A program made the position numbers and the translations under genes. A stretch of 63,575 nt of DNA, the filler included, from Octopus bimaculoides (taxonomy: Eukaryota): the NCBI RefSeq assembly GCF_001194135.2. It is 5 parts of 5 records of this genome, joined end to end, with 100 filler letters (N's around TTAATTAATTAA, not from the genome) between each part and the next. Parts side by side here need not be neighbours in the genome. Positions count along the whole stretch, not along the records: positions 9,472 to 28,827 come from NC_068987.1; positions 28,928 to 55,909 come from NC_068981.1; positions 56,010 to 62,167 come from NC_069005.1; 2 more parts are not named here. One strand, 5' to 3'. Under the pieces are notes generated by a model. It was not told the origin of the DNA and did not search any database. It saw only the letters and a list, made by a program, of their open reading frames with translations. Positions 18,562 through 56,790 of the stretch are shown in pieces (the stretch's first letter is position 1; each line of letters begins with the position of its first letter).

Positions 18562-18614
18562 GCACTACTAATAGTTTCATATCTTGAAAAAACTCAAACA
18601 TATTCTTTAGGCAC
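18562..18614 (-). ncRNA. Minimal type I hammerhead ribozyme motif, mutated core (CUAAAGA)
   Basis: Minus strand reads gtgc-CTAAAGA-atatgtttgag/ttcaagatat-GAAAC-tatta-GTA-gtgc, downstream of the PLE ORF in the sense orientation. Confidence 0.65.
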
Positions 18615-19363
18615 AAACCACATATCATAACGAACTAAAGAAATTAAATCATAGAAGAAAAGCGAAAAAAAAATGAGAAGGCAGCATATAAAAAATGCAG
18701 ACAGTAAACAATGGAAAATGGAAAACAGAAAATGAAAAACAAACTAAAATATAGAAAAATAAAAGTAAAAAGGTAAAAGATCCATCCTCCTTAGACCTTA
18801 AATAATAAAGTTGGAAGGATACCAAGTCAGTCAGGAATAGGCAGAATTTTACAATTCTTCAAACTATATTTATATATATATGCATGCAACCATTGAAAAT
18901 ATCTGACCTGGAGCACAATAGAGAGTTAGGGATCTTAGATCTGAACAGGAGCTGCGCTTTTTCAGCCAAACAAAGTCTACATTTATTCAATCCATTCACA
19001 TAAGGTACAAATTTCTCAATTACTTTCCATTTAATCACATGCAGTGTTTCATTATCTTTCACAGTCCATACAAAGCTAGCCAACTTAGTAGCTTTATTTT
19101 TGTCCCTATGTTGGAAAGAGGCTATGTGATTGGCATCGTGATTTTTAAATTCACCTTCGCATAATCCAATATAAGTCTTATCAGCTGTATTATTATTTAG
19201 GGTTGCAGTAACTTCTGCCTCGTATACGATGGATTTAGTCTACTTTTTAATTTTTACATTTTAGTTTCTGTTTTGCATTGTTTACTATCTGTGTTTTCTA
19301 TATTCTGCCTTCTCAGTTTTTACGCATTTCTTCTATTATTCAATTTCTTTATTTCGTTATATA

Positions 19364-19410
19364 TGAAGAATATGTTTGAGTTTTCTCAACATATGAAACT
19401 ATTAGTAGTG
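19364..19410 (+). ncRNA. Hammerhead ribozyme motif in the inverted PLE repeat, 5' strand of stem I deleted
   Basis: (a)TGAAGA-atatgtttgag-tttt-ctcaacatat-GAAAC-tatta-GTA-gtgc. Confidence 0.6.
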
Positions 19411-20264
19411 CTTTAATACATGTATTGTGACCTTTAAATAAATTATATTAATCTCTCACCAGATGGAGTACTGTTTTTGTTGAATTTTCTATTACGGATC
19501 AGTACATGATAAATATCTTTTATAATATATAAAATAAAGATATGTGCATATTCACTGTTCACACGAAAATGGCTTCACCAATTGCTTTCATACTTGTAAT
19601 GCATGAATAATTTGACCTCAGACAAATAATAGGCAGTTCATTTGATTTTTTATTAAAAATTATCAAAAGTAAAAAATACAGTCATGCCTTTGAAAGTTTT
19701 TACAATATTTACATCCAGTTTTCTAGCGCCAGTGATGTAACATATCTCTTTATGTATATCTCTCTATCTCTGTCTCTCTATCCATATCACTTGTCTTCAC
19801 TTTCATTTCTCAGCTGCTATTCTTTGCACTTTCAATTTTCATACACCATTGTTTAACTTCCATGTTATTGGTTTCACTGTAAGTCTAAGTTTATAATCGC
19901 TATTTACAAACAACAAATTATTGACAGTAAGAAGTTCACAATTACTGATGTAAGTTATTTCATAATTTACAGACATAAATATCTTCATAAATTTCACTTA
20001 AATCCATACAGTTTTGTCTTATTCTGTTGATGACGGTTTCTTTCTGGTTCCTTCGATACTGGCATTTTGGTTCACTGAGTAACAAATTTTGCTTCAATCT
20101 GTACAATACTTTATTTTCCGTTAAAATTTCTTATTTACTTTCTGCCCGTCGTATTAAGAAACATAATTTCTGTTACCAAGTTATTTTCATTGTTTACTAT
20201 CTTCTGCACTATTTCGTGTATTTCTATATACATATGTAACTTTGACTAGAAGGAAAGTGTCAAA

Positions 20265-21268
20265 TTTGTTGGCAGAACTATAGATTTCTGCTCCACCCCC
20301 ACTCCAATTTCGATGATCATAACTTTCAGAAAAATGGATATTTTTAATGAAATTTTCTACAAATATGTNNNNNNNNNNNNNNNNNNNNNNNNNNNNNNNN
20401 NNNNNNNNNNNNNNNNNNNNNNNNNNNNNNNNNNNNNNNAAATATACCTCAGACTATGTAAATTCCAAGGACTTAGGAATTTGGAGGGAAAACAATTGGG
20501 GGTTACTTTTGAGAACTGTTCCCCACTTAGGGGTGTTTCGGAACAAGTCATCCATATTTGTTTCGTTTTCTCCATTTTGTGTGTTTGTGCATCCATAGAT
20601 TTCTACTGAAGAAACAAAAAGGCAATGAAGGCAAATGAAGCCCTCAGCAGAAAACTCGTTATGCTAAAACTAACATCCGGGACATAGAAATATGTTATTA
20701 AGACTACTTATTTGTTGCATACAATTTTTTTTTTACTTTAAGTAAATTCCCAAGTAAATGTTTCTAATAGAAAGGCAGAAGACACCAGAAGCAAAAATAA
20801 GGAATGTACATGCACAGTTGAATATAGAAGTGTGAAGTATAATTTGTTACATAATCTCTATAATAAGCATAATATTGAATGGAATAAGTCCTTGTTTGAA
20901 CTTTTTAAATTACATTTGTGTGTAATTACAAAATGGATAAAATGAAGCAAATATGGACAGCTTGTTCTGAAACACCCCCAAGTGGGGAACACTTCTCAAA
21001 AATAACCCCCAATTGTTTCCCCCCAAAATTGCTATGTCCTCGGAATCTACATGGTCCAAGGTATATTTGTAGAGAATTTCATTAAAAAATATCCATTTTC
21101 TTGAAAGTGAAGACGAATTGAAGTGGACTCCGGTAAATTTTCAGAAATTCCCCACCCATGATATAACATATTCGTAGAAAATGTCATTAAAAAAATATCC
21201 ATTTTTCTGAAAGTTATGATCATCCAAAGTCCGGGGGTGCACAGAAATCTGTAGTTATGCCAAGTTGT
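20265..21268. mobile_element. Foldback/MITE-like palindromic element, copy 1 (~450-bp modular inverted arms, short spacer)
   Basis: Left end ggcagaactatagatttctg matches right end cagaaatctgtagttatgcc. gatgatcataactttcagaaaaatggata and its reverse complement lie at opposite ends. The left arm is partly N. Confidence 0.8.
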
Positions 21269-21299
21269 CTACAATATCAAGTTCAGTCAAAAGAATGTC

Positions 21300-22797
21300 T
21301 CTGTCCAGGGAAAGAGAGATAGCTGCAGAAAGGGAAGATGCCAAGAAACAAACAGACTGTGTACTATAAAATCAGAACATCTCAAAGTGATGAACAGAGG
21401 TTATGCATGACTGACAAAGAATAGTATCTCCACTGCAGAACGAAGAGCAGTTGCAACAGCTCAGAGAAGCAACTTCTACAAAAAAACTTTCAATTATGAT
21501 CCAGCAGTACATTATGCAGATGACACTAGAGTTTCCATTGGTGCAATGACAACTGAGTGCATACATTGTAAAGCAAAGAAGTAGTCTGGAGAGACACCTG
21601 CACTGTGCTGCTGTGGTGGAAAGGTTAAACTCCCTGCAATCACCCAACCTCCAGAACCATTGAAGAAACTGTTGTCATCAACTGACCAAGAATTCAAGCA
21701 CTTCCAAAACAAAATTAGACAGTACAATGCTGCACTACAGATGACATCATTTGGATCCACAAGAGATATAACTGAGCCAGGATTCATGCGAACTTTCAAG
21801 GTCCAAGGTCAGGTTATCATCGGATTGGCTCTCTACTCCCTCTGTGAAATGAATCACCAAAATTCCTTCAAATATATTTTCTGGGTGATTCTCGATAAGA
21901 AGGGCAAGAGAGGTGCAAGAACATTTCCGGCATCAGGATGAATATTGTAGTGTCTCTGCAAAAGATGCTGCATGACAACAACAACCTGATCAGAAGCTTC
22001 AAGACTGCACTTGAAACAATTCCACCTAACTCCAAGGTAGTTATCAGATCAGACAAGAAACCATCTGGTCAAAATGGATGTGCCAACAGCAAATGAAATA
22101 GCTGTGCTTCTGGTTGGGCAAGAACATGACAAGCATGACATTGCCTTCCATCTCAGAGACAGCACATTGACACAGTCCAACTAAAAATGGAAGCTCCCAA
22201 AAATACCACACTCACAGCATTCTTCCAGCTCTGTCAAGATGATGGATTTACTACAAGAGTGTTATACAATGAAGTTCTACAATTTTATACCTGGTACCAA
22301 AACAAATGGAAAAGACGTGCACTTGGAGCACCCACATCATTTACAGCCTTATGTACAGTTGACAACACAATATGTCAAACATATCGCCAGGCTTGCCATC
22401 TCAGAGGTCTTCTGGAAGATGATGCACACTGGGATGCCACTCTGACAGAGGCACAAATGTGCAAGTCTCCTATGCAGCTGAGAAACCTCTTCTCCATCAT
22501 GGCAACATGATAGGTAAGAATGTCTTCATTCCAAGGATACTGGTCATCTCAAATGATCTCCCTTTTCATTACAAGAGACTGCAGTTTCCTGTCAAACTTA
22601 GTTTTGTAATGTCTATCAACAAAGCAAAAGGTCAATCTCTAAAGGTGGTGAGACTTAACCTCCTTTAACCTTGCTTTTCAAATGGTCAGCTGTATGTTGG
22701 ATGTTCTAGAGTTGGAGATGAAAAGAACCTCTACATTCTCAGTGATAAACATGGCAAGACAGAAAACACTGTATATGTAGAAGCACTTACATGAATA
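21300..22797 (+). mobile_element. Internally deleted Helitron (RepHel N-terminus, post-Rep segment and Pif1 helicase C-terminus)
   Basis: CCCGGKVKLP..PPEPL, IRQYNAALQMTSFG, TFKVQGQV, TTLTAFF, YRQACHLRGLLEDD.HW, KRLQFPVKLSFVMSINKAKGQSL, GQLYVGCSRV and NTVYVEAL. Confidence 0.93.
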
Positions 22798-23174
22798 GTA
22801 GGTCCATGTCATATACAGAAGTGTAAAACCATTGAGTGTTAAAGCATTACTATTACACTTTCACTTTTCAACTGACATGCATGAATGTATATCTGTGTAT
22901 AAAAGTGAAACAGTAACATGATATATTCGCTGTCTGTTTGTTTGTGTGTGTGTGTGTGTGTACTCTACGCACGGCCTACCATTGTTTATAATCCGTACCT
23001 GTTTTTGGTTACGAAATAAGATAGACAAACGTGTAATTACTTTATATACATATATGGGTCGAAAACTTTCTTTTCACATTTCACTTAATGTCTATGTTCC
23101 ATGTTGGGATGGGTTGCAGAGTTACGTTCAAAGTTGGTATCTCAACTACTAGCAGTTGAGACCTGCGTAATCTA

Positions 23175-23382
23175 CAGGGTATCCACAAAGTCTGGGTACA
23201 TGGGGATTAACACATACTTTAAGAAATTATTATTTCTTATATTTAATTGTTTATGTTATGATTTTATTTACTCCATATACCCACATGGGGATTAACACAT
23301 ACTTTAAGAAATTATTATTTCTTATATCTAATTATGTTATGATTTTATTTACTCTATGTATCCAGACCTTGTGGACACTCTG
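23175..23382. mobile_element. Tc1/mariner-type MITE with TA TSD and an internal ~85-bp tandem duplication
   Basis: TA-cagggtatccacaaagtctgggtacat ... atgtatccagaccttgtggacactctg-TA. Confidence 0.88.
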
Positions 23383-23744
23383 TAGACAGCAACTTTGAAT
23401 TTCATGGCATCACTGGATATTTCTGCTAGTATATATATATAAAGATTACATGTTGACCTCTCTCTTTATACCAGCAAACTTTGGTATGAAAGTAATCTCT
23501 CAATGTATATTTTCCCTGATGATATTTTGCTCATATCTTATAAATGCAATTTATTTAATGATGATGATGATATATATATATATATATATATACATATCAA
23601 TAGCAATTGCAGCTTCAAAGATATTTGTTAGCCATTCAAGGAAAACAAAAAAACCATTAGATTCACTTCAACATTTAATTTTCAAAAACAATTGCAACAT
23701 GGAAGATGTTTGTAAGCCATTTAAGAACACACAAAAAAACCATA

Positions 23745-26700
23745 TCTACAGATTTCTGTCCCTTCACCGACTTTAGATGATCATAACTTTCAGAAAAATG
23801 GATATTTTTTTAATGAAATCTTCTACAAATATGTGTTATATCATGTAGATTCCGAATATACAATATTTTTTAGGGAAAGTGTTTTAGGAGAGGGCTGGGT
23901 GGGGAATTTCGGAAAATTTACCGGAGTTCAATTTGTCTTAACTTTCAAGAAAATGAATATTTTTTTTATGAAATCCTCTACAAATATACCTCAGACTATG
24001 TAGATTCCAAGGACTTAGGAATTTAGGGGGTTACTTTTGAGAACTGTTCCCTACTCAGGTGTGTTTTGAAACAAGTTGTCCATATTTGTTTCACTTTCTC
24101 CATTTTGTGTGTTAGTGCATCCATAAATTTCAACAAACAGGCAATGAAGGCAAATGAAGCCCTCAGCAGAAAACTCGTTAGACTAAAAATAACAGCTAAA
24201 GGTCTGGTACACAGAAATATGCTATTAAGACAACTTATCCGTTACATACGACTTTTTTTTTCATCATCATCATCATCATAATCGTTTAACATTCGCTTTC
24301 CATGCTAACATGGGTTAGACGATTTGATTGAGGACTGGCAAGCCAGAAGGCTGCACCAGGCTCCAATCTGATCTGGCAGAGTTTCTACAGCTGGATGCCC
24401 TTCCTAAGGCCAACCACTCCGAAAGTGTAGTGGGTGCTTTTACATGCCACCGGCACAAGGGCCAGTCTCACGGTACTGGCAACGGTCTCACTCAAAAGGT
24501 GTTTTTTACGTGCCACCTGCACAGGAGACAGTCCAGCGGCACTGGCAACGACCTTGCTCAAATGATTTTCTAACGTGCCATCAGTACAAGTGCTAGAAGG
24601 CGACGTTCATAACGATTACGCTCTAATAGTGCTATTTACAGGCCACAAGCACGGAAGCCAGACAGCTGCTCTGGCAATGAACACGCTTGGACAGTGCTGT
24701 TAGTGCTCCACTGGCGCAGGTGCCAGTCATCGGATATATTTTGATTTTACTTGCCCCAACATGTCTTCACAAGCAGAGTTTAGTGCCCAATGAAGGAGAG
24801 GTTGGCATGGGTGCCAGTCGTCGGATTCGGTTCGATTTCAATTTCAGATTTCAAATTTACTTACCTCAACAGGTCTTTGAAAGCAGAGTTTAGTGTCCAA
24901 TGAAGTAAAGATATGGATAAGTGAGCAGGCCACACTTCTGGCAGAGGTCCCAGCTTATGCTCTCACTTGGTTTGCCGGGTCTTCTCACATACTGCATATT
25001 TCCAAAGGTCCCAGTTACTAGTCATTGCCTCGGTGAGGCCTAAAGTTAGAAGGTTGTGCTTCACCACTTCATCCCAGGTCTTCCTGAGTCTACATCTTCC
25101 ACAGGTTCCCTCAACCGCTAGGGTGTGGCACTTTTTCACACAGCTATCCTCATCCATTCTTGCCACGTGACCATACCAGCGCAGTCGTCTATCTTGCACA
25201 CCACAATTGATACTTCTTAGGTCTAACTTTTCTCTCAAGGTACTTACACTCTCTCGAGTATGCACACTGACATTACACATCCATTGGAGCATACTGGCTT
25301 CTTTTCTTGCGAGCTTACGCATGTCCTCAGCAGTCATGGCCCATGTTTCACTGCCATGTAGCATGGCTGTTTGTACACATGCGTCATACAGTCTGCCTTT
25401 TACTCTGAGTGAGAGACCCTTTTTCACCAGCAGAGGTAAGAGCTCTCTAAACTTTGCCTATTTTCTGCACATTTACAGTGTTTATTGCTCCTGAACATCT
25501 GCCACATACAAAAACTAACTTCTTTGTTAACCTTCTTTTGATATTGCTGCACCTCTTATGTGTCTATAGCTTGCACTGGGTACATCTTATAGAGTTTCTA
25601 CCTACACCTTTTCTACAGATCGAGCAGGGCCATCTAATTGAAATGGTTTGTGATTTATCTACCTTCCTACTTATTAGGACTTTTTTTTTACCATGTTGAC
25701 TCTAAGGCCCTTCGATTCTAGTCCTTGCTTCCACACCTGAAACTTCTCCTCTAGTTCTGATAGTAACTCAGCAATTAGTGCAAGGTCATCAGCATAGAGG
25801 AGCTCCCAGGGGCATCCCGTCTTGAATTCCTGTGTTATTGCTTGGAGGACTATGATAAATAGGAGGGGGCTGAGGATAGAACATTGGTGGACCCCTACCT
25901 CTACCTGGAATTCTTCACTGTACTCGTTGCCAACCCTCACCTTACTGACAGCATTCCTGTACATGGCTTGCAAAGCTCTCACTAACCACTCATCTATCCC
26001 CAGTTTCCTCATTGACCACCAGATAAGGGAGCGGGGGACCCTGCCAAAGGCTTTCTCCATGTCAACGAAAGTCAGGTACAGAGGTTTATCTTTGACTAGG
26101 TATTTCTCCTGCTGCTGTTTTACCAGAAATATAGCATCGGTGGTGCTTTTCTCTGGAATGAACCCAAACTGCATCTCATCTAAACTGACTTTCTCCCTAA
26201 TTTGTTGGGCTATGACTCTCTCGGTGACATTCATTAACTGGTCCAACAACTTGATACCTCTGTAATTGTTTGTGTCTAAAGCATCACATTTACCTTTGTA
26301 GCTGTTGACTATGGTGCTGCTACACCAGTCATTGGGTATGACTCCTTCGTGAATCACCTGATTAACTATACGGGTGACTACGCTACAGCCAACACTGCCA
26401 GATATTTTGAGCATCTCTGCAGTGATTCCTGATGGGCCGGGGGCTTTCCCAGTCTTCAACAGAAAGGCAGAAGAAACCAGAAGCAAATATAAGGAATATA
26501 CACACACAGTTGAATATAGAAGTGTAAAGTATAATTTGTTACATAATCCCTATAATAAACATGATATTGAATGAAATAATTCCTCGTTTGAACTTTTTTT
26601 ATTACATATATGTGTGTGTGTGTGTGTGTGTGTATGTGTAGAAATGTAGGGATGCACAAATTCCCAAAACAAAGAAAATGAAACAAATATGGACTTGTTC

Positions 26701-27062
26701 CGAAACACCCCCAACTGGGAAACAGTTCTCAAAAATAACTCTCAATTGTTTTTCCCCAAAATTCCTATGTCCTCGAAATCTACATAGTCTGAATTTACAT
26801 AGTCTGAAGTATATTTGTAGAGAATTTCATTAAAAAATATCCATTTTCTTGAAAGTGAAGACGAATTGAAGTGGACTCTGGTGAATTTTCCAAAATTCCC
26901 CACCCAGCCAATTCCTAAAACACTTTCCCCAAAAACTTTTGTACATTCAGAATCTACATGATATAACACATACTCATAAAAATTTCATTAAAAGATCCAT
27001 TTTTCTGAAAGTTATGATCATCCAAACTCAGGAGGGAGGGAAGCAGAAATCTGTAGTTATGC
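23745..27062. mobile_element. Foldback element copy 2: left arm ~23745-24258, right arm ~26459-27062, split by an RTE insertion
   Basis: Both arms align to the copy 1 arms. The right arm resumes at agaaaggcagaaga, as at 20770. Confidence 0.8.
24261..26458 (-). mobile_element. 5'-truncated RTE LINE with RT, internal deletion, 3' UTR and (GAT)n tail
   Basis: KTGKAPGPSGI...LLYADDL and KGRLYDACVQTAMLHGSETW...RRLRWYGHV; (tca)n at 24261-24279. Highly similar to 14574-15560. Confidence 0.95.
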
Positions 27063-27070
27063 TAGATTCC

Positions 27071-27156
27071 CTGAAACTGCGACCTGTTCACTGACAAAAC
27101 TTTGTGCTGCATAGATGCAGCATGAAGTTTTGTCAGTGAACAGGTCGTGGTTTCAG
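27071..27156. repeat. 86-nt near-perfect hairpin
   Basis: ctgaaactgcgacctgttcactgacaaaactt pairs with aagttttgtcagtgaacaggtcgtggtttcag, and there is an inner tgctgcat/atgcagca stem. Confidence 0.92.
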
Positions 27157-27299
27157 AGTCACGAAAATATTTTGACACAAATTAAATTTAAATGATGAAG
27201 TGAATCTAATAGTTTTTTTGTGTGTTCTTAAATGGTTTACAATCATCTTCCATGATGCAATTGTTTTTGTTTCAGCACACGATTTCAGATCAAGTCACT

Positions 27300-28350
27300 T
27301 GCTATGCAAGTACAACTCCATAATTTTATTTACATTCGTGTCAGAATTTTCGTTGCTTGACCAGTATCACAGACAAACTTTATCCAGTACAGACATCAGC
27401 TGACAGAATATTTAATATGAAACTAAGGGATGTCTTGCATGATATTTCGGAGGAAAATATTTTGGGAGAGGTTGCAGGGTTGATGCGGACTATAGAGTTT
27501 CAAAAGCATGGACTACCCCATTGTCATATGTTGTTCATATTAAAAAAAAAAATCCAGAACATTATGATAAATTTGTTTATGCAGAACTACCAAATCCACA
27601 AACACAACCAATTCTGTTTCAACATGTCACCAAAAGCATGCTACATGGTCCATGTGGAAGAGATAAACCCAATGTAACATGTATGGTTGATGGAAAATGT
27701 AAAAAACATTTCCCTAGACACTTTCAGGAAAATACATTACACAGTTATAATGGCTATCCACCTTACCAACATTGAAATAATAATTTTACATTTACAAAGT
27801 CTAATGTTGAATTAGATAATCATTCAGTAGTACCATATTCCCCCTTCTTTTTAGTCAAATATGGAGGTTATTGTAATGTAGAGACATGTGCATCTGTAAA
27901 ATCAGTTAAATATATTAGCAAATACATTCATGAAGGTCATGATTGGGTGACAGTCAATATTAGTGGACAAACCAATGTACGACAAATACACAAAGATAAA
28001 ATTGAAAATTATATCAATGGCTGCTATGCATCCTCATCAGAGATAGTCTGGAGGATTTTAGGGTTCAAATTACACGGTTCATATCCTGCAGTAAAACAGC
28101 TTACAGTTCACTTACCCCAACAGCAATACATTTACTTTAATGACGATGATGATATTGAACACGTTATCCACACACAACAAGCCCACTCTCACTGAATGGA
28201 TGCGAGTTAACCGGAAATCACTAGCTGACTCATTTGCATGTACATTACACTATACTGATTTCCCTGAATTTTACACATGGAATAATAGACAATTTTCTGG
28301 CATCTCAGAAAAAATAATACACACTCAATTGGGGATATATACTTTGTTTC
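27300..28350 (+). mobile_element. Helitron Rep (HUH) domain remnant
   Basis: IEFQKHGLPHCHML (HUH motif), MLHGPCG, CMVDGKCKKHFP, VVPYSP, CNVETC, KYISKYIHEGHD and WRILGF. Confidence 0.93.
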
Positions 28351-28532
28351 ACTAAAGGAACATGATGACCATGAATACTATCGGACTATGGAGTTTGCAA
28401 ATATTTCAGCTACTCCATATCAGATGCAAAGACTTTTCAGCTCCATATATTACACAAAAATATGATACAATGTAAAATATCTTAAAGATAGCGTGTTCAC
28501 ACTAGTACATTATATATATATAAATTGTTGAG

Positions 28533-28827
28533 ATGCTTGAACGGAGATGCGTAGATATGTGCTGCATCCAGGAAGTAAGATGGAGAGGAGGTTCTGCAAG
28601 GTTCCTCACAGGCAAAGAACACAGGTACAAGATTTTCTGGGCAGGGAACACTGACGGGGTCGGGGGCGTAGGAATACTTCTAGCGGAGAAATGGGTGGAT
28701 AAGGTAATCGAGGTCGTTAGAGTAAGTGACAGAGTACTTAAGATCAGACTAGTGCTTCATCATAGATTAGCTACTGTCATCTCAGCCTATGCACCTCAAC
28801 CTGGGCTACCAGATGGTCTGAAAGACC
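28533..28827 (+). mobile_element. Young RTE LINE 5' coding fragment (APE endonuclease) running into a gap
   Basis: Uninterrupted MLERRCVDMCCIQEVRWRGGSARFLTG...YAPQPGLPDGLKD; an inverted homolog of 16600-16875. Confidence 0.92.
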
Positions 28828-28929
28828 NNNNNNNNNNNNNNNNNNNNNNNNNNNNNNNNNNNNNNNNNNNNTTAATTAATTAANNNNNNNNNNNNNNNNN
28901 NNNNNNNNNNNNNNNNNNNNNNNNNNNAA

Positions 28930-34850: not shown

Positions 34851-36412
34851 ATATCCTGTAGTCTATTAAAGATAATGCCATTTGATGAATACAGCTTTTA
34901 AGTACTTGACGTTGTATATCATCGGTATTTGTAGCAGATCCAATGGTGCATATCCTTTTGGTTTAATTAAATGGAATATTTGCCTTCGTGTATTTCGAAT
35001 AACACACGGTAAGGAACAGAGAATGCTTCGAGTCTGTAGATTTGTATTATACTTCTGTATTAATTCGGATGTTTGCTTTCATCACTAAAATATTGAAAGA
35101 AAAAACAGAAGTTTTCTTGATTGTATTTCCCTGTGAATGTTGCTATTTATTCCATTTTAAATTCATTTAATCGTTTTATTGTTTTATTCCATATAATAAG
35201 CAATCGTCTACGAATCTATTCTAGTTCTCTTTTATATATTAATAGAAGGGGTTTCCGTATTTTTGTTGCGATTCTTGGAACATTGTAGTTTCCAAATCCC
35301 TTAACTAAATTTTTATTGACTGAATTCTCATGCAGCTTTGGATTGTTGTCAACAGTTTCGCAATTCTTTTCATCTAACTGGTACCCTTCCTCACAATGAA
35401 AAAAAATTGAAAGTAAGGCACATATTATGTTGCTACAAAATAGGGACACAGCAACATTTGGTAAAGCTACCAACAGTGTGTAACGGTAGCTATTAAAACT
35501 ATTATGTCTCTTGTGATCGAAGCCATTATTATAACAGGTTGTGCCAAAGAAGTATTTGTTTTCATTCCTTCTATTCCTCTCTCGTGCCGTCAGATATGCT
35601 ATAACAGTTCAAATGCCTTCAACTTCCAATGATATTCTTTCAAAAGTCTTTCGGGACTGCTGTAGTTGAACTGACAAATCCAGGTATTACTCATAGTTAG
35701 ATGCATGTTCAAGTGTTGGGCCGTGCAGACATTTTCCCCCATAGCACCCAACTGCAGAACAAGATATGTTATCTCTCCTAAATCTCTTCCAGTTAGAATT
35801 GGCTGTTCTAGTAATTTAGAATTACAAAAAAAAAAAAAGTATATAAAGTAAAGCATAAATAAAGTATTATTATTTTGTCTATATAAGAAATATACAACTT
35901 TGTAAAATTAGCTTAATTCATTTATCTTAAAGTATGATGTGCTGAAGATTCCAATGAAGGATGAAAAACGCTATACATGGCTACCAACGACTAGAAACTT
36001 TAAAAACTTTATAATGTATAGAAACAAATATTGAATATGTATCCTCTGTATACTTTCTCTAATCCGATGTAAATTCCAAACTTTCAAATCCACCTCAACT
36101 AATTTAGTATAGAAAGGATTGTTTCCCCAATAATAGTTGACCATCAGGAGCACGCCATGTGCATAAATAAAGTATTTATTTAAGCGTCAAAATTAGATTA
36201 ACAATAAACACATTCTCTAAAATTTCACACATTATAACAACTTGGAAAAATTTCATTTTAAATATGCTTCTGTAATAAATTAAAATTATATGTAAATGTA
36301 ATCATATACAAAAAAGCGCTACATTAAAAACGTGCAGCAGGTCAAATAATTTTTCAACTTCTACAAAAAAAGTTTCTATATTTCTGGTATCCAGGCAGTC
36401 CCAGTACCTACG

Positions 36413-39057: not shown

Positions 39058-39660
39058 ATTCAAATTCCGCCGAGGTCGACTTTGCCTTCTATCCTTTCGG
39101 GGTCGATAAATTAAGTACCGGTGAAACACTGGGATCGATGTAATCGACTAGTCCCCTCTCCCCAGATTTCAGGCCTTGTGCCTATAGTAGAAAGGATTAT
39201 TATTGATATTAAGGCGGCGAGCTGGCAGAATCGTTAGCACGCCCGGCGAAATGCTTAGCGGTATTTCGTCTGTCCCTACGTTCCGAGTTCAAATTCCGCC
39301 GCGGTCGACTTTGCCTTCTATCCTTTTGGGGTCGATAAATTAAGTATCATTTGAGTACTGGGGTCGATGTGAACGACTGTCCCTCTCCCTACAAAATCCA
39401 GGCCTTGTGCCAATAGTAGAAAGGATTATAATTATAATTATTATTATTATTATTATTAAGGCAGGATTTTTAACGCAGCAGAGAAAATGCTCAGCGGCAT
39501 TTCGTCTGACTTTACACTGTGAGTTGAAATGCTGCCGAGGTCCATATTGCCGTCCATTCTTTCAAGATTGATAAAATAAATAGCCATTGAATACTGGGGT
39601 CGATGTAATCGACTAACCTCCTTCCCACAAACTTTTGGCCTTGTGCCTAAAGTAGAAAGG

Positions 39661-39711
<51 letters not shown>

Positions 39712-39958
39712 GTTGTTGTTGTTGTTGTTGTAGTTGTTGTTGTTAAGGCGGCGATGTAGCAGAATCGTTAACACGCCGGGCAAAATACTTAGTGGTATTT
39801 CGCCCGTTTTTACATTTTGAGTTCAAATTCCACCGAGGTCGACGTTGCCTTTCATCCTTTCAGGGTCGATAAATGAAGGACCAGTCAAGTACTGGGGTCG
39901 ATGTGATTGACTTACCCCTCTCCACAAATTCCAGGCCTTGTGCCTATAGTAGAAAGGA
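39058..39958 (+). mobile_element. Train of four head-to-tail family A SINEs (39058-39197 partial, 39211-39425, 39458-39660, 39745-39958)
   Basis: Each copy ends in tagtagaaagg followed by (ATT)n, and the next begins aaggcgg or aaggcag. Confidence 0.92.
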
Positions 39959-40059
39959 TTATTATTATTGTTATCCCGCCTCCATTGCACTGTTCCTTTC
40001 TCGACCCTATACCACGTCTACAATATATTTAGACTACTCTATCCTCATATTTACTAACC

Positions 40060-46302: not shown

Positions 46303-46689
46303 NNNNNNNNNNNNNNNNNNNNNNNNNNNNNNNNNNNNNNNNNNNNNNNNNNNNNNNNNNNNNNNNNNNNNNNNNNNNNNNNNNNNNNNNNNNNNNNNNN
46401 NNNNNNNNNNNNNNNNNNNNNNNNNNNNNNNNNNNNNNNNNNNNNNNNNNNNNNNNNNNNNNNNNNNNNNNNNNNNNNNNNNNNNNNNNNNNNNNNNNNN
46501 NNNNNNNNNNNNNNNNNNNNNNNNNNNNNNNNNNNNNNNNNNNNNNNNNNNNNNNNNNNNNNNNNNNNNNNNNNNNNNNNNNNNNNNNNNNNNNNNNNNN
46601 NNNNNNNNNNNNNNNNNNNNNNNNNNNNNNNNNNNNNNNNNNNNNNNNNNNNNNNNNNNNNNNNNNNNNNNNNNNNNNTATTTTAACAT

Positions 46690-48438: not shown

Positions 48439-48489
<51 letters not shown>

Positions 48490-48551
48490 CACATATATAC
48501 ACAGGGAGGAATCAACTCTGGAAAGTAATGAAGTGTGTTTTAGTTACTTAC

Positions 48552-49352
48552 TGATAACTGGCGCCATTGTTACTGGTGCGCTTGTGCTTACTGCTGGTCC
48601 CTTTGTAGTAATAGCTTGTACTGTATTCCCCTTTGTTATCGCTGGTGGTTCCGTTACGTTTGCTGTTGTATTGAAAGTAACACTTTGCGATTCAACTACA
48701 GTTGATGTTGTGTTGGTAGTGATGGTACTTTTGTCTGCTGAGATAGGAGTCGAGGAAATGAATGGAGTCGAAATAAAGCTCTGAGTTACATTGGTGCTTC
48801 CTTGAGATGTGTTCTGCATGGTAGGGGTGGAATTTATACTTGTTGTATCTGGAGATGATGAACTCGAAGTAGTTGTTCCAAATTCAATGTCTGATGTAGA
48901 AGACTGCAGTGTAGGGGACAACGTTGAAGCAGAAGAAGGAGAGAGAGAGGAAGTTAGAGAAGTGGAAGAAGGAAGAGAGTTAGAAAGAGAAGAGGTGGAA
49001 GGAGAAAGAGAAGTAGAAGAGGGAGGAGAAAAAGATGAAGAAGGAGAAGAAGAAGGAGAAGGAGAGAGAGAAGAAGAAGAAGAAGAAGAAGAAGAAGAAG
49101 AAGATGAAGAAGAAGAAAAAAAAAGAGAAGAAAGAGAAGAAGTAATAGTAATAGTAGAAGGAGTAGTAATTTCTGATGTTGAGCCAAGAATAGAGGAAGG
49201 TGATGTAACTGAATTTGTTGAAGCCACTGTATTTGTGGTTTGTCCATTGGTTATGGAGGAGAATGAAGTAGATATAATAGTATTGACACTATCTGTGGTC
49301 ACTGATGATGTTGTGGGGACAGAGACGCTTGTGTTCTGACATTTTACATTGG
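48552..49352 (-). CDS. Host gene exon: Ser/Thr/Pro-rich mucin-like stalk (probably includes the end of the signal peptide, xNVKC-QNTS)
   Basis: Acceptor ttctatttcaaacag|CC (AG at 49354-49353) and donor ATC A|gtaagt (GT at 48551-48550). 801 nt, open, phase 1 to phase 1. Translation NVKCQNTSVSVPTTSSVTT...APVTMAPVI is S/T/P-rich with N-glycosylation sequons. Confidence 0.85.
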
Positions 49353-49569
49353 CTGTTTGAAATAGAACGCGGAGAAAAAGGAAAAGTGTTAGAATATTGC
49401 ATATGCTATACAATTCTATGAATTAATTCAAACAAACTTTATTCCGGTTGCGGCATGTATATCTGCCCATTATTCATTTTGTTATGAAATAACAAGTTTT
49501 AGGTTCTGGTTAATGAAAGTTTACAGGTTGATTGTTATATTTAATGATAATATTATACATAAATACTTT

Positions 49570-49772
49570 AAGGCATCGGGTTGACAGAATCGTTACCGTG
49601 CCTGGCAGCAAAATGATTAAGTTCTGAGCTGAAATTCCGCCGATGTCGACTTCGCCTTTCATCCTTTTCAGAGTTGTTAAAATAAGTGCCAGTTGAGCAT
49701 CGGTGTCAATGTAATCGACTTAACCCCTCCATCGAGCTTTTTTGACCTTGTGGCCAAATTTGAAACCAGTAT
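49570..49772 (+). mobile_element. SINE family A copy
   Basis: aaggcatcgggttgacagaatcgttacc...cgcctttcatccttt. Confidence 0.75.
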
Positions 49773-50239
49773 TATACATATATTTACAATTCGAAATAAT
49801 CACCTTTTGCTTTCACCGTAACCCTTAATCTGTTCTCAACTGATAATGGGTAAAGTATTATGTTTAAATAATGGGTAAATATATATGCCCCAAGTGGTAA
49901 ACAGTGACTCGTAGGTTAACCCGCTTTTGCATCCTATTTCGACATCGCAAGATCGATCCAGAGAATAACATAAAGAATATTTCTGGTATTAATTTGATAG
50001 TAGGGGGTTAAAAAATACTGAAATGATTTGCTTCAAGAGATAAGACAGTACAGGTGTAAACGGACCCAAATAAAACACCATGTAATCTCCCTTCTTAATT
50101 ATTAAACTTTAACCATGTATATAAACAAATATGTATGAGTTAATGGCGAAGTCTCCAAACATCCTACAAAATAGCAACCAAAAACGCCTCAAATCTTAAG
50201 AAGTGAAGGACCAGCTAAATAATGTAACCTAACGAGGCG

Positions 50240-51422
50240 TGGATTCTTCTGACGAACTCTTCTCTTTAGTTCTGTCCACATTTGCTCGATGTTATTTAAG
50301 CTAGAGCTCTGAGCTGGCCAATATTTCAATAGAGTAACACCCTCATCAGCCACACTCTGTTGTGTTGCACGCAATCTGTGTGACATGGAGCTCCGTCATG
50401 CTGAAAAATCTCACCTTCATCTAAGTCTGGTATCAAATTGTCCTTCAGTATCTGGATGTATTTGGCACTATTCAAATTACCATTAATTTTAACCAACTTT
50501 CTTGGACCATCACTTTTTATGCATCCCAAAAGCATCAGACTCTTACCCCACAAATTCACTTTTTTCGTTGTGTAAAGTGCGTCGTTTCGCTTTCTAATAA
50601 GCGAGAATTTGTCAGGTCTCCAGGAAAGCGAAATGACGCACGTAACACGACGAAAACAATGAAGTTTGGGGGTAAGTGTTTGATGCTTTGGGGATACATA
50701 AAAAGTGATGGTTCAAGAAAGTTGGTTAAAATTGATGGCAACTTGAATAGTGCCAAATACATCCAGTTGATGAAGGACAATTTGATACCAGATTTGGATG
50801 AAGGTGAGATTTTTCACCACCACGGAGCTCCATGCCACAGATCGCGTACACCACAATAGAATCTGACTGTATTGAAAGATTGGCCAGCTCAGAGCCCTGA
50901 CTTAAATATCATCGAGCAAATGTAGACAGAACTAAAGAGAAGAGTTCGTCAGAAGAATCCAAGCAATCTTGAAGGGATGTGGGAGCTCAGCCACAGAGAA
51001 TGGCATCTCATACCTGTGAAGATGGTGAAGGATCTGTACGTATCTCTTCCCAGGCGCATTGAAGTAATTATCTAAGCTAAAGGAAGCCACACGAAATATT
51101 AACAATGTACAATAACTTCTTGAAATGAACGTTAGGTAATAACTTTCTATTACAGACATTTTCCTGTTTTAAAACACTATATCTTGATTGGGTTATATGA
51201 GGTGGCCGAAAACTTTTGCACGGCTATTTTTGGTGGTCGTCTCGCAACTTCCCCTCTCATTCAGAACCCCTACTACAAAATATGATTAGGTATGGAAATG
51301 ACTCCAAGAGGGCCGATGTTTCATCTGTAAAATACACAACGCGAAACATCCACTTATAAGTTGGCAATTAGTAGAAATTTACAATAGTTTAAAGTGGCCG
51401 AAGACTTTTGCACGGTACTGTA
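50240..51422. mobile_element. Palindromic Tc1 derivative: head-to-head transposase 3' halves plus a right IR/DR terminus
   Basis: ~50248-50594 (minus) mirrors ~50623-50960 (plus); both encode GNLNSAKYIQ..KDNL...WPAQS. gtggccgaa.acttttgcacgg occurs at ~51203 and ~51394, ending cggtactg-TA. Confidence 0.9.
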
Positions 51423-52435
51423 TATACTTTCAGACGATTCAATGCCTTTCTCTGTCAGAACTAGGTTCCATATCTTCTATGAGAGTTACCTGTGACAGAT
51501 TGGCTTTAGATCTATATCTAAGGAAGTATTTATCTCTTACCGCTTCCTCCTACTAAATGTCGGGAAACTTCTGAAGTTTCGAAACGAAACAATTTTTAAC
51601 AACGCCAAAGGAATGAGGAGCGTTTTTGACTCTGGTCGGATTTAAACTGAAGATGACAAAACACAAAATGGTATCATAAATTGTTACATACAGCTCTGTA
51701 GCGCCTGCAATATACCTAATAATTTAACGTTGAGAAAGCAATACTCACAAAGACAAAATGATAAAATGAGAACTGTGAACCATTTGATGTCCCAAAGTTT
51801 TGGTACTGTACGTTTACCTTTAAAAAAATGAAAGCAAAATAAATAAATAAACTAGATTTTGATTTTTCTAATCCAATAGAAGCAGGCTAATGTAAAGAAT
51901 CTCTGTGATAAGCCAACAATGATTAATTGATTATAACTCACAGTTGACCTCGTTTATCAGGAGGTCATTTTTGTTTCATGAATAAATAAATTAAAAAAGA
52001 AAATATTTGTCTCTATCAAGAAATTTGTATTGTGGTTTTTCAGTGTGTGTGTGTGTGTGTGTGTGCATGTGTGTGTGTGTGCATGTGTGTGTGTGCGCGC
52101 GCATGCATGCGTGTGTTTGTACTTTGTCTGAGTGTATATGTGTGTGTGATATACAATAACTTGGTATTTTAGACAGTAATTTTACAAACAAATACATTTG
52201 GCATGGTTTGGCATAAAAACCGAAACTTTCTTATTTACTGCAAGCATTAAACTGTCCTGTAATAAACCATAAAAATGGTAGACAATAATATATGAGTTAA
52301 CGCGGTGTATGTGAGTACATGTAAGTATTGTAACAGTGCTAGTATCTACCAGTTGTTATATATAAACTCATTGATACTTGAAATGCATTAATTCCAATTG
52401 TTGAGCCTATCAGCAATCAATATATACGCACATAC

Positions 52436-52508
<73 letters not shown>

Positions 52509-53088
52509 ACACGATAGCATGTAAATTTTTTCTATGCTCGGATATAAACACAGTTCCAGAGCATTATGGTACAAAGCTGTATAGTGGAGAAAGTAGCATG
52601 ATATTACACTTGCATTATGAAATATTAAATGAAATTTTTTTTTTTACCTTGCATCATTTATATTTTCTCAGAATCTTTAAGTTCTACTTGAATTTCAGGC
52701 TGAAACAAATAAACAAGTAAAACAACCATCATAGAAGTAACAAATAAATACTAATAAGCAATGTATTTTATAAGTGTTAACACAACAAATAGGTGTTAAC
52801 ACAATATAGTGTGCACTATAAATATAATTAATCGAGATTATTTCTACATCGGGAAGAGGTAAACGTTGTTGAATATTGTTTAACTCAACCAAACATAAAA
52901 ATGGGTGAGAAGTAAAAATAAAAATGAAAGATGATAATAAAACAACAATAATAAACGAATTTATTTTAGTGTGTATGATCACCGTCAGTTTTCCACGATG
53001 CGTATTCATTTGTTCAATCAACTAAATTACCTGTTCATCGAATTAGCATATAATTGACTGAATATTTCTCGGGGACACGTACAGTTAA

Positions 53089-53305
53089 CCCTTTAGCAAT
53101 CAGATTACTCTGTCAAATATAATGCTTATTTATTCACGATGTTTTGAATTAATCACGCATTGTCTCATAGCTTTGAGATTTTGATATGATAGTTTATTCT
53201 TAGAATGACGTTGTAGTGTAGTTGTAAGAGGTCAGATCTGGGTGGTTTGAACATAAAACAGGTAGAACATTTGGGCCGGACAACGCAAGTTTAAATACTA
53301 AACGG
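53089..53305. mobile_element. piggyBac-like MITE with TTAA TSD
   Basis: TTAA-ccctttagca ... tactaaacgg-TTAA. Confidence 0.85.
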
Positions 53306-53311
53306 TTAAAG

Positions 53312-53500
53312 CAATTCTCGGTTAGAACCCGTGTGAAACAAAGTACAATACTTCCAACGACCTACCACAGTTTCCGCCAACCTAATTTTACTTATAAGGC
53401 TTAGGTCGACTCGAGCCATAGTAAATGACCCGTGTACAAGGTGCCACGCAGTGGAATCGAATCCAGTACTCCGTGATAGCAAAGCGAATTTCTTTATCAT
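53312..53500 (-). mobile_element. SINE family C copy, decayed
   Basis: caaggtgccacgcagtgga shared with 54860-55025 and, in the opposite orientation, ~4740-4840. Confidence 0.7.
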
Positions 53501-54036
53501 TCGGACTTACTACGTAAGTAATATTGTTGAATTCATGACCGGTCAAACAACTGAATTATAAGGCTAAGCAATAAAGTTCCATTAGGTCATATAACCACAA
53601 AATATATTTGATTTATAGACCTAAGTAATTAAATTGTTTTAAGTACATTGTTTCTAAAGTTCTTAGTAGTTGATATTTGTGTTTAACAGCGAAGACAAGA
53701 CAGAATGCCAGCATTTCTGTCTCTTAGTTCCATTATCTATTTTATCTCTGTATATCTATCAGACACTACTCAAAGTCATCCTGACAAGAAATGTTGATGT
53801 TAAGAGAGCAAGAGGCTACCAAAAACATTTGTGAATATACGACATCAAAGAGTGGAATAAAAAAAGAACCTGACTGATTGTATGCATGCAGTACAACACA
53901 GAGGAAACTGAAGAATCTTGGCAAGTTGACCGTTGGACACAGAGATGGCATCTGATATATAATATATGATATGATATGATATGATATGATATGATATGAT
54001 ATAATATGATATGATATGATATGATATAATATGATA

Positions 54037-54084
<48 letters not shown>

Positions 54085-54089
<5 letters not shown>

Positions 54090-54590
54090 GTCATCTCATA
54101 AATAACGCGTTTTTTTTTACTTCTTTTCTTTTTCAAAATTAAGATAACAAAAATCCTTTTTTAATCTAAAATATACTTTCCTTCATTTTCTACAATGTTC
54201 TTTCATCTATCTGGTAGACTTCCAAGGCCCCTCTTCTAAAATTCACTTGTCCGTAACGGAAAATACTCTTCCAGTACTATTCTGACCTCGTCTACAGAAT
54301 TCATATTTTTTCCTTTTGAATGATTTTGAAGACTGCAGAATAAATGATAATCAGATGGGGCAATGTCTGGTAAATATGTTGGGTGGGGCATTGTTTCCCA
54401 TTCACACTGCCCTAGCCTTTGGAATGTCATCATCGCTGTATATGGCCGAGCGTTATCCTGATGGAAGAACACTATTCGTCTTGAAGCCAAAGATGGTCGT
54501 TCTCTGATGGCATTCAGGTATCGATGAATGATTGAATGACCAAATCCAAGCTTCTCTGCTAGTTCCTCAACGGTTACGATGGGATTTTGT
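54085..54590 (-). mobile_element. Mariner 3' half with right TIR
   Basis: FFHQDNARPYTA...HPTYLPDIAPSDYHLFCSLQN; TIR tattgggtcatctcataaataacgc next to (TA)n. Confidence 0.9.
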
Positions 54591-54659
54591 CTTATGTCGA
54601 ACCGCTAAGTTACGGTGACGTAAACACACCAACACCGGTTATCAAGCTGTGGTGGGAGA

Positions 54660-54701
<42 letters not shown>

Positions 54702-54712
54702 GNNNNNNNNNN

Positions 54713-54757
<45 letters not shown>

Positions 54758-54859
54758 GGCTTTTTTGTCAAGCAGTAATGGGGATAAACATAAAAAACGA
54801 ATACACACACAAAGACACACACACACAAAGACACACACACACACACACGCATACACACA

Positions 54860-55025
54860 CGACGGCCTTCTTTCAGTCTCTGTCATCCCGTCGACCAAAC
54901 CCACTCACAAAGCTTTGGTCATCCAGAGGTTACAGTAGAAGACACCTGCTTAAGGTGCCACGCAGTGGAACAGGACCCAAAACCGTGTGGTTGAGTACCA
55001 AACCTCTTACCACACAGTCACGCCT
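54860..55025 (-). mobile_element. tRNA-derived SINE family C with (CA)n-rich tail
   Basis: Minus-strand head aggcgtgactgtgtggtaagagg and core ccactgcgtggcacc. Confidence 0.8.
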
Positions 55026-55141
55026 ATAGATGTTTATAGACGTTTGTAGAATATTCTGCTGAATGTATCTATGTACTTTAAAAAGTTTTAAAAAGTACTT
55101 GCATGCTTTATAAGGTATCCATAAATTTGTTATAGTACCAA

Positions 55142-55533
55142 TGTTGTTGTTGTTGTTGGCACTCCGTCGCTTACGACGTTGAGGGTTCCAGTTGATCCGA
55201 TCAACGGAACAGCCTGCTCGTGAAATTAACGTGCAAGTGGCTGAGCACTCCACAGACACGTGTACCCTTAACGTAGTTCTCGGGGATATTCAGCGAGACA
55301 GTGTGACAAGGCTGACCCTTTGAATTACAGGCACAACAGAAACAGGAAGTAAGAGTGAGAGAAAGTTGTGGTGAAAGAGTACAGCAGGGTTCGCCACCAT
55401 CCCCTGCCGGAGCCTCGTTGAGCTTTAGGTGTTTTCGCTCAATAAACACTCACAATGCCCGGTCTGGGAATCGAAACCGCGATCCTATGACCGCGAGTCC
55501 GCTGCCCTAACCACTGGGCTCTTGCGCCTCCAC
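55142..55533 (-). mobile_element. Full-length SINE family B with (AAC)n tail
   Basis: Reverse complement of 7065-7438. Confidence 0.92.
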
Positions 55534-56288
55534 AATACCCATGTACCTAATGAACAAAAGCACTATAGCAACAGCTGATAATATATGTATTCTATGCAAA
55601 ACCGAACCTGAAGACATTAGTAATTGCATTGTCAACTGTAAGTGAATGTCCTCACGATACCTTCATACCATGAGATCAGAACAATATGGAATACAATAAG
55701 GAATAAAAAGAAAAAAACAAAAAAACACAGCAGTCAGTAAAGATGAACATATTGGGTCAGTGTGATCAGAAGTATATTGTTGGAATCTAAAAATAACAAT
55801 TTAAAACAAGTTTCTTCCATAATTGTGTAGACTAATGACATAGCTATGAACGTTGTGATTTATCGTTGGACATTCTAATGTTTATGGAACACTTTCGTGA
55901 TATGTCCCANNNNNNNNNNNNNNNNNNNNNNNNNNNNNNNNNNNNNNNNNNNNTTAATTAATTAANNNNNNNNNNNNNNNNNNNNNNNNNNNNNNNNNNN
56001 NNNNNNNNNTGAACATTTTGAAAAATATCGATGCGGGAGTAAAGGAGATAAACATTTATGATGAAAGACCTTTCAACTCCAGGCAAAAATCTCCAATGAC
56101 CTCCAGGGCCATCTATGGGAAATTGATTCTCGTAAAATTCTTGCCACTGACATAAATGAGAAAGCACAAACGAAGAAACAGTCGGAAACAAGGAGCCAAC
56201 GACAATTACGATAAATGTGTGTGCGCGCGCGCGCGTTGCATGTAAATATCTCTCTCCCTCCCTCTCTCTCTGTATACATGCATGTATG

Positions 56289-56322
<34 letters not shown>

Positions 56323-56524
56323 TGCATGTATGTATATATATGTATGTATGTATGTATTTATGTATGTATGTAGCTGTACATATATAGCCATACAAATGGC
56401 CACCTAGCCGAATTGACAGCACCGACTCTGTAAATTATGAGTTCAAATCACATTGAGACCAGTTTTGTCTTTCACTCCTTCGAGTTCGATAAAATAAAGC
56501 ACCAGTCAAGACCTGAGTTCGATG

Positions 56525-56588
<64 letters not shown>

Positions 56589-56594
56589 GTAGTG

Positions 56595-56790
56595 TACCGT
56601 GATTGAAAATTCAACAAAAAGTACTGCATCTGGTGAGAGATAAATATCATTTATTTAAAGGACACAATACATGTATTAAAGCGCTACTAATAGTTTCATA
56701 TGTTGAGAAATACTCAAACATATACTTCAGGCACAAACCACATATCATAGCGAAGTAAAACAAATTTGAATAAGAGAAGAAACGCGAAAA
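56595..56790 (-). mobile_element. Solo Penelope terminal repeat, same family as 18533-19500
   Basis: gaaaattcaacaaaaagtactgcatctggtgagag...ttatttaaaggacacaatacatgtattaaagcgctactaatagtttcatat. Confidence 0.88.
56681..56734 (-). ncRNA. Hammerhead ribozyme motif, best-preserved copy (core CUGAAGU)
   Basis: gtgc-CTGAAGT-atatgtttgag-tattt-ctcaacatat-GAAAC-tatta-GTA-gcgc. Confidence 0.7.

What the first reader, a model, noticed from the sequence alone, without database searches (positions are those of the whole stretch)
18562..56734. Three Penelope terminal repeats carry minimal hammerhead ribozymes, each broken differently; the consensus is intact
Seen in sequence: copies at 18562-18614 (-), 19364-19410 (+) and 56681-56734 (-). 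They have cores CTAAAGA, (A)TGAAGA with a stem I deletion, and CTGAAGT. All share stem II atatgtttgag/ctcaacatat, GAAAC and a GUA cleavage triplet, and the two minus-strand copies keep a 4-bp stem I (GUGC with GCGC or GUGC). The consensus core is CUGAAGA. Stem III is tiny, with a near-palindromic ACTATTAGT. Established: Penelope-like elements carry minimal type I hammerheads in their terminal repeats, and palindromic stem III allows dimeric folding. Inference: this family's active form self-cleaves, perhaps as a dimer. Two copies are on the minus strand, the same strand as the host gene, so a near-intact copy could cut pre-mRNA if it lies within the transcript.
Basis: partly seen in the sequence, partly recalled or inferred. 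Interest (0 to 1): 0.72.

Follow-up and report, generated by a model that had tools for sequence, protein, structure and literature searches.

The report
Decayed Hydra-clade Penelope hammerhead ends
The three ribozyme-like motifs are real, but they are the damaged tail ends of an old, common jumping gene of a known kind, they lie on two different chromosomes with no host gene seen around them, and they are predicted to be unable to cut RNA, so this is ordinary.

Summary
The motifs are present as described. They are type I hammerheads in the 3' ends of one Hydra-clade Penelope-like element (PLE) family. Copy A carries a GIY-YIG remnant; a tandem copy elsewhere (L071, about 2.3 kb) shows pLTR-RT-endonuclease-pLTR with Hydra motifs. 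A and B are one inverted, 5'-truncated insertion on C7; C is a 210-nt stub on C25. The majority base over 119 copies gives an intact core. Two subfamilies differ by a compensatory stem I pair, by N7 and in loop II; stem II shows no covariation. Core positions decay as fast as flanks (7.5% vs 7.5-9%). All three window copies are predicted dead (G5A; deletion; A9U). Folding predicts an inactive monomer and, for one subfamily, a favoured double hammerhead. The host pre-mRNA idea fails: the window is a pack, the minus-strand gene is on C1, and copy C's unique flanks have no RNA reads. Craig et al. 2021 describe this clade, an octopus member and the same stem III; this family was not found in their supplement. 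This scan noted the same kind before on other DNA (42 notes). New member of a known kind, low interest.

The parts
18525..19240 (-). Copy A: 5'-truncated Hydra-clade PLE (endonuclease end, 3' UTR, hammerhead), short-tailed arm of an inverted insertion, next to CA/TA repeats
   Evidence: Many genome copies match window 18525-19240 at 80-86%; tail absent (L031)
18862..19239 (-). GIY-YIG endonuclease remnant, 126 aa open (VYEAEV...YIG, CxxC, CxH)
   Evidence: Translation; 74% to L066 endonuclease, 39-40% to three full-length RT-EN proteins, E 1e-20 to 1e-26 in a small local database; no Pfam match at cut-off
18562..18614 (-). Hammerhead A, predicted dead: G5A (place 18608) plus two stem II mismatches; cut site would be 18566/18565
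   Evidence: G5A is the inactive control in PMC4075628
19241..19508 (+). Copy B: inverted short arm of the same insertion (3' UTR, hammerhead, about 60-nt tail)
   Evidence: Junction at query 741/742; 81% to arm A; long tail
19363..19410 (+). Hammerhead B, predicted dead: 14-nt deletion removes stem I 5' arm and C3
   Evidence: Alignment; stem I probability 0
56585..56794 (-). Copy C: about 210-nt 3' stub with long tail, abutting (TA)n at 56531-56586; on another chromosome (C25)
56681..56734 (-). Hammerhead C, predicted crippled: A9U (place 56724); stems intact; cut site would be 56685/56684
   Evidence: 89 of 93 family RNA reads over 56724 carry the consensus A9 instead

Best explanation
The three motifs are decayed copies of the type I hammerhead in the 3' end (pseudo-LTR) of an old Hydra-clade Penelope-like retrotransposon family; the ancestral ribozyme likely cut the element's own tandem transcript, probably as a double hammerhead, and these three copies are predicted to cut nothing. 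Shown: the sequence, the link to RT and endonuclease, the pLTR-ORF-pLTR tandem, the inverted arrangement of A+B, the intact majority core, neutral decay of copies. Inferred: a transcript from an upstream pLTR through a full-length unit holds two sense hammerheads about 2.3 kb apart; alone each folds with CUGA paired into the stem III strand (inactive), while two can pair through the near-palindrome ACUAUUAGU and cut 3' of GUA, releasing a unit-length template; RT/endonuclease then insert 5'-truncated cDNA at (TA)n, often with an inverted second arm; after insertion the copies mutate freely.
For: Endonuclease remnant contiguous with hammerhead A. L071: 559-nt direct repeat at 85% flanking an ORF remnant that covers 632 of 678 aa of P0002, RT then endonuclease. 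Hydra motifs: CxCX5C linker in 17 distinct copies, CxxC...CxH in 20, RWK in L071, matching the clade definition. Majority base at all 11 fixed core positions is canonical, 102-115 of 119 copies each. Subfamily alpha has stem I pair C-G in 40 of 66 (U-A in 4), beta U-A in 19 of 25 (C-G in 0); the other subfamily differences inside the ribozyme are N7 and loop II. Core mismatch 67/890 (7.5%) vs 3' flank 145/1935 (7.5%) and 5' flank 73/814 (9%) in copies not chosen by the core pattern. Alpha consensus: monomer stem III probability 0.01, active fold 2.4 kcal above MFE; the two-strand MFE is the double hammerhead, -32.7 vs 2 x -14.2. Of 25 fully intact copies, 0 have the active monomer as MFE and 16 have a double hammerhead below two monomers. 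Penelope-1_HM has the identical stem III and GUA.
Against: No cleavage assay. Stem II has no compensatory change between subfamilies, so it is supported by complementarity only. Pair 10.1-11.1 is A-U, not the usual G-C, though many Hydra-clade motifs also have U11.1. For the beta consensus and copy C the two-strand MFE is not the double hammerhead (-29.9 vs -36.6; -28.1 vs -32.2), and only 8 of 25 intact copies have it within 1 kcal of MFE. Nearest-neighbour energies ignore core tertiary contacts, so the monomer could be more active than predicted. The stem I change falls on CpG sites; its link to subfamily argues for one fixed double change, but it is one event. Pfam finds neither RT nor GIY-YIG in these frames and Rfam finds no hammerhead. 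No RT tree was built. No pile-up of read ends at the cut site, in fragmented, unstranded libraries that could hardly show one.
Confidence: 0.9

Rival explanations
1. Same element, but the ribozyme works as a monomer, with stem I extended by a predicted 6-7 pair distal helix beyond an internal loop, as in canonical type I hammerheads.
For: The distal helix is in the MFE of both consensus folds and of copies A and C; its pairs are the majority state in both subfamilies except the closing one. The active monomer is only 2.4 kcal above MFE for alpha. Craig et al. list Hydra motifs as canonical monomers.
Against: Stem III hairpin alone is +2.1 kcal and has probability <=0.01 in both consensus folds; the intermolecular duplex is -4.9. 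No covariation in the distal helix, and its closing pair is G-G in 15 of 24 beta copies. Stem II is too long for the canonical loop contact (recalled geometry). Single PLE min-HHRs did not cleave in vitro.
Confidence: 0.2
2. Copy C (or A) lies in a host intron on the sense strand and cuts the pre-mRNA.
For: Both are on the minus strand of the window; copy C keeps all three stems. Family-derived RNA exists at low level. Large introns could span a 6-19 kb stretch without an exon, so an intronic place is not excluded.
Against: The stretches come from C7, C25 and C1. No host exon found by Pfam in either stretch. Zero depth over copy C's unique flanks, and 3 of 831 laid RNA reads at >=99% identity. 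A9U and G5A lesions. No sense partner nearby for a dimer. In a transcript through A+B, 45 of 47-53 hammerhead bases pair with the antisense arm.
Confidence: 0.03
3. The short copies are a separate non-autonomous, non-coding retrozyme family rather than truncated PLEs.
For: Copy C and arm B are non-coding; animal retrozymes derive from PLE pLTRs (abstract and introduction).
Against: 5' ends are staggered from about 60 nt to over 2 kb and run into the ORF; no tandem monomer arrays: of 29 loci with two hits, 26 are inverted pairs, 2 are pLTR-ORF tandems and 1 is a split hit.
Confidence: 0.04

Closest known systems
Hydra clade of C-terminal EN+ Penelope-like elements (Craig et al. 2021, PMC8557442; read: passages, sections 3, 6, 11, 12, supplement part 2 and search hits), incl. 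Hydra-1_Obim
   Same: RT then GIY-YIG, CxCX5C linker, CxxC and CxH, RWK, under 3 kb, (TA)n targets, tandem pLTR and inverted truncated arm, hammerhead near the 3' end, tail on one arm only.
   Different: A different family from Hydra-1_Obim: its listed hammerhead differs in all stems and the stem II string had 0 hits in the supplement; the proteins differ widely by eye (not aligned). Tail about 60 nt against the 30-40 bp described. Stem II 10 pairs against 3-7 in the published Hydra table.
Penelope-1_HM / Penelope-18_HMa hammerheads of Hydra magnipapillata (File S2 of PMC8557442)
   Same: Identical stem III and cut site (ACUA-U-UAGU-A), 4-pair stem I, U at 11.1.
   Different: Short 4-pair stem II with a U-U at its base there; long bulged A/U-rich stem II with A10.1-U11.1 here.
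Minimal hammerheads of metazoan PLEs (Cervera and de la Pena 2014, PMC4209133; read parts 1-2 of 4)
   Same: Long helix II, short helix I, palindromic helix III region, scattered single copies and close opposite-strand pairs, proposed dimer activity.
   Different: Has a 3-pair helix III with loop, no extra base between 9 and 10.1, no G10.1-C11.1.
Animal non-LTR retrozymes (bioRxiv 10.64898/2026.07.22.740005; read part 1 of 5)
   Same: Type I hammerhead of PLE pLTR origin.
   Different: No tandem non-coding monomers; copies run into coding sequence.

Membership tests
Hydra-clade PLE | Single RT ORF with C-terminal GIY-YIG endonuclease | tested here: met
   L071, L073, L066 remnants align in order to P0001/P0002; Pfam silent
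Hydra-clade PLE | CxCX5C linker before the endonuclease | tested here: met
   17 distinct copies among loci L001-L120
Hydra-clade PLE | No CCHH cysteine pair between GIY and YIG; CxxC and CxH around E and N | tested here: met
   Alignment; 20 distinct copies
Hydra-clade PLE | RWK motif near the N terminus | tested here: met
   WMRWKALL in L071
Hydra-clade PLE | DKT in place of DKG | tested here: inconclusive
   One copy reads FSDKTNNLY, one is frameshifted there, L071 has a deletion; too few copies reach it
Hydra-clade PLE | Length under 3 kb | tested here: met
   Repeat-to-repeat distance about 2.3 kb in L071, 2.7 kb in L073
Hydra-clade PLE | Insertion at (TA)n | tested here: met
   23 of 36 long-tailed copies with a defined end have a dinucleotide repeat within 24 nt (TA, TG and CA counted together; no background control)
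Hydra-clade PLE | Placement in RT phylogeny | not tested
   No named reference sequences were on hand as files
Type I hammerhead | Core CUGANGA / GAAA / UH | tested here: met
   Family majority; 36 of 78 copies not chosen by the core pattern keep it. Not met by any of the 3 window copies
Type I hammerhead | Three stems with covariation | tested here: inconclusive
   One compensatory pair in stem I; none in stems II and III within the family; a few sister motifs have other stem I/II sequences
Type I hammerhead | G10.1-C11.1 pair | tested here: not met
   A-U in 62 of 67 alpha and 23 of 25 beta copies; variable in published Hydra motifs too
Type I hammerhead | Self-cleavage 3' of the UH | not testable with these tools
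   Needs in vitro assay
min-HHR (Cervera and de la Pena 2014) | No helix III/loop 3; extra base between 9 and 10.1 | tested here: not met
   3-pair stem III with AUU loop, no extra base
Non-LTR retrozyme | Tandem non-coding monomers each with a hammerhead | tested here: not met
   0 arrays among 29 loci with two hits

The most novel reading that the evidence does not exclude
The ribozyme is a self-locking switch: CUGA pairs into the stem III strand in the monomer and only a second sense copy frees it. Some 50-200 genomic copies may still be intact, so they could be switched on in trans by any family RNA and nick host transcripts; and the strict rule of one long and one short tail (about 60 nt apart) in inverted pairs would mark two fixed priming sites on the element, one per strand.
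Probability: 0.15. Interest if true: 0.4.

Novelty: new member of a known kind. Interest (0 to 1): 0.13.

Why it matters
Little as it stands: one more Hydra-clade family whose ribozyme fits the published pattern. It adds a clean natural substrate (intact copies exist, two subfamilies with one compensatory pair) for the open question of whether animal PLE hammerheads cleave as monomers or dimers, and a counted tail asymmetry that bears on how PLEs prime and resolve insertion.

Tried and rejected
Rfam scan of the whole window at E<=10: no hammerhead among 93 matches. Pfam on the endonuclease and RT frames: nothing at cut-off. Naiad clade considered and rejected: endonuclease is C-terminal and the linker is CxCX5C. 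Identity with Hydra-1_Obim rejected. Host gene: 149 frames scanned, 141 from the two stretches with copies (a subset: 55 of 66 and 86 of 89 listed; low-complexity frames and three frames scanned earlier were left out) and 8 from the C1 stretch; only transposon domains in the first two; short exons would be missed. Run search: no RNA holder listed (no evidence). RNA reads over A/B: flanks are themselves repeats, so locus transcription cannot be told; no pile-up of ends at a cut site. About 6% of each of 3 runs from one study was read; the libraries look unstranded. Sister motifs with the same stem III: 56 matches, 0 in control; most are mutated copies of this family; of 15 inspected, some fold well (L133, L136, L138), four or five do not fold, so no covariation test was run. 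Young copies: none; best pairwise identity 96.5% among 113 copies over about 113 columns, longest open element frame 310 aa. Literature: 3 searches; only Craig et al. link octopus, Penelope and hammerheads; Repbase/Dfam could not be searched, so the family may be catalogued there. PMC6155905: nothing read.
Full report
Observation. The three motifs are in the sequence at the stated places, and a de novo scan of both strands finds these three and no other. The window is a pack with joints at 9372-9471, 28828-28927, 55910-56009 and 62168-62267. Copies A (18562-18614, -) and B (19364-19410, +) map to G000:C7, copy C (56681-56734, -) to C25, and the minus-strand exon at 48544-49422 to C1. G000 has 2.34 Gb; that it is an octopus is my inference from size, repeat content and earlier notes, not a tool result.

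What the repeat is. Copy A extends 716 nt (18525-19240) and its 5' part encodes a 126-aa GIY-YIG endonuclease end. At 19240/19241 the strand flips and arm B begins, so A+B are one 5'-truncated insertion with an inverted arm. Walking upstream through other copies reaches an RT. A search with the L066 endonuclease frame among longer proteins gave 13 unnamed relatives of 586-721 aa, 35-44% identical, among 828 candidates. L071 holds a 559-nt direct repeat (85%) on both sides of an ORF remnant covering 632 of 678 aa of P0002, with 10 stops: the pLTR-ORF-pLTR layout. The CxCX5C linker (17 copies), CxxC...CxH (20 copies), RWK and the catalytic R are present, and there is no cysteine pair between GIY and YIG. 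These define the Hydra clade (PMC8557442 section 11). Pfam detects neither domain. The published Hydra-1_Obim has a different hammerhead, and this family's stem II string has no hit in that supplement; Penelope-1_HM has the same stem III and cut triplet.

The family ribozyme. 119 distinct copies from loci L001-L120 were aligned; 40 of them come from loci chosen by a core pattern and were left out of the rate tests. Every fixed core position has the canonical majority base. Two subfamilies, called on five positions outside stem I, differ inside the ribozyme at N7 (A or U), in loop II length, and by one double change in stem I: C-G in 40 of 66 alpha copies, U-A in 19 of 25 beta copies (Fisher p 1e-12 on the C-G/U-A cells, but this is one evolutionary event counted many times, at CpG sites). 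Stems II and III show no compensatory change. Pair 10.1-11.1 is A-U. Exact patterns match 121 and 199 places, 0 in reversed controls; calibrated on the sample this gives roughly 500-1400 hammerhead-bearing ends. Copies are 8% from their subfamily majority on average, and core positions are hit as often as flanks (67/890 against 145/1935 and 73/814), so there is no sign of selection after insertion. 36 of 78 keep the core, 13 of 78 keep core and stems (4 of 47 when copies chosen by likeness to C are dropped).

How it likely works. In the predicted monomer MFE the CUGA strand pairs with the 3' strand of stem III; the active fold is 2.4 (alpha) or 4.0 (beta) kcal/mol higher. The stem III hairpin alone is +2.1, the intermolecular duplex -4.9. 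For alpha the two-strand MFE is exactly the double hammerhead (-32.7 against 2 x -14.2); for beta and copy C it is not. Among 25 fully intact copies none has the active monomer as MFE, 16 have a double hammerhead below two monomers, and 8 have it within 1 kcal of the two-strand MFE. This fits the dimer model and the weak in vitro activity reported for PLE hammerheads (PMC4209133). I infer that the two sense hammerheads of a pLTR-ORF-pLTR transcript paired and cut out a unit-length template. This is prediction; no cleavage is shown.

The window copies. A has G5A, the standard inactive mutant (PMC4075628, part 1 of 2), and two stem II mismatches. B lacks 14 nt including C3 and the 5' arm of stem I. 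C has A9U, 10-100 fold down by the same paper, and the change extends the inactive helix (gap 5.2 kcal). In a transcript across A+B, 45 bases of the sense hammerhead pair with the antisense arm on either strand.

Host pre-mRNA. No host exon was found in either stretch (Helitron and LINE domains only). In three RNA runs of one study (about 6% of each read) copy C's unique flanks at 57166-57597 and 58030-58605 have zero depth; 3 of 831 laid reads are 99% or more alike, and 89 of 93 reads over 56724 carry the consensus A9. Family RNA exists at low level but comes from other copies. For A/B the flanks are repeats and the test is inconclusive. An intronic place in a large gene is not excluded, but a crippled core, no partner and no reads make the idea improbable.

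Side result. Of 29 loci with two hammerhead hits, 26 are opposite-strand pairs; 21 of these have one arm with the roughly 60-nt tail and one without, none has two long tails, and 5 are unscorable, intermediate or tailless on both arms (counted by hand; two loci were fetched because they were inverted pairs). Craig et al. describe a 30-40 bp tail at one end.

Verdict. Real, ordinary, a new family in a described clade. The scan holds 42 notes of this kind in at least 4 genomes and none near this place. Interest 0.13.

Noticed in passing
window 9543-11173 (-), C7 stretch: A second, distant Hydra-type RT remnant (30-33% to the L066 RT, 34-39% to P0001/P0002/P0007) in two open frames of 273 and 271 aa; its 3' end is cut by the pack joint.
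   Followed up: partly
L071 (G000:C8:78134017-78137720): pLTR plus near full-length 2.3-kb unit of this family in tandem, ORF broken by stops, frameshifts and a deletion; L073 is a second tandem.
   Followed up: yes
26 inverted pairs among loci L001-L147, incl. window A/B: One arm carries an extra tail of about 60 nt, the other stops after the AT-rich motif; 21 of 26 pairs, never two long tails.
   Followed up: partly
L024/L041 (G000:C3:45.93 Mb): A family copy lies a few hundred bases downstream of what reads as an EGF-like exon (label recalled from the cysteine pattern) on the same strand; its hammerhead is broken at C3 and in stem III. One case of a sense-intronic copy with a dead core.
   Followed up: no
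L143, L136, L137, L138, L133: Sister hammerheads with the same stem III but other stems I/II; L143 has a Hydra RT and endonuclease at 50-62% to this family; L136/L137 have G10.1-C11.1 and GUC.
   Followed up: partly
window 14557-16957 (-), 24963-26549 (-), 28524-28826 (+): LINE remnants with RT, PHD finger and AP endonuclease domains.
   Followed up: no
window 21585-22510 and 27324-28195 (+): Helitron fragments (Helitron_like_N at 27324-27674, E 3e-12).
   Followed up: no
window 50379-50839: 216-nt inverted repeat, 88% complementary, whose arms read as Tc1-like transposase fragments (label recalled); explains the sub-threshold MIR2646 Rfam match.
   Followed up: partly
window 48544-49422 (-) and 35219-35608 (-), C1 stretch: Ser/Thr-rich mucin-like exon with a hydrophobic N-terminal stretch, single copy in G000; a weak antistasin-like match further on (E 6e-4).
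   Followed up: partly
window 39059-39992 and dispersed: Three to four tandem copies (229-298 nt spacing) of an abundant SINE-like repeat, with further dispersed copies.
   Followed up: no
window 13259-14255: Degenerate array of about 41-44-nt units, 17 copies listed (family D14).
   Followed up: no
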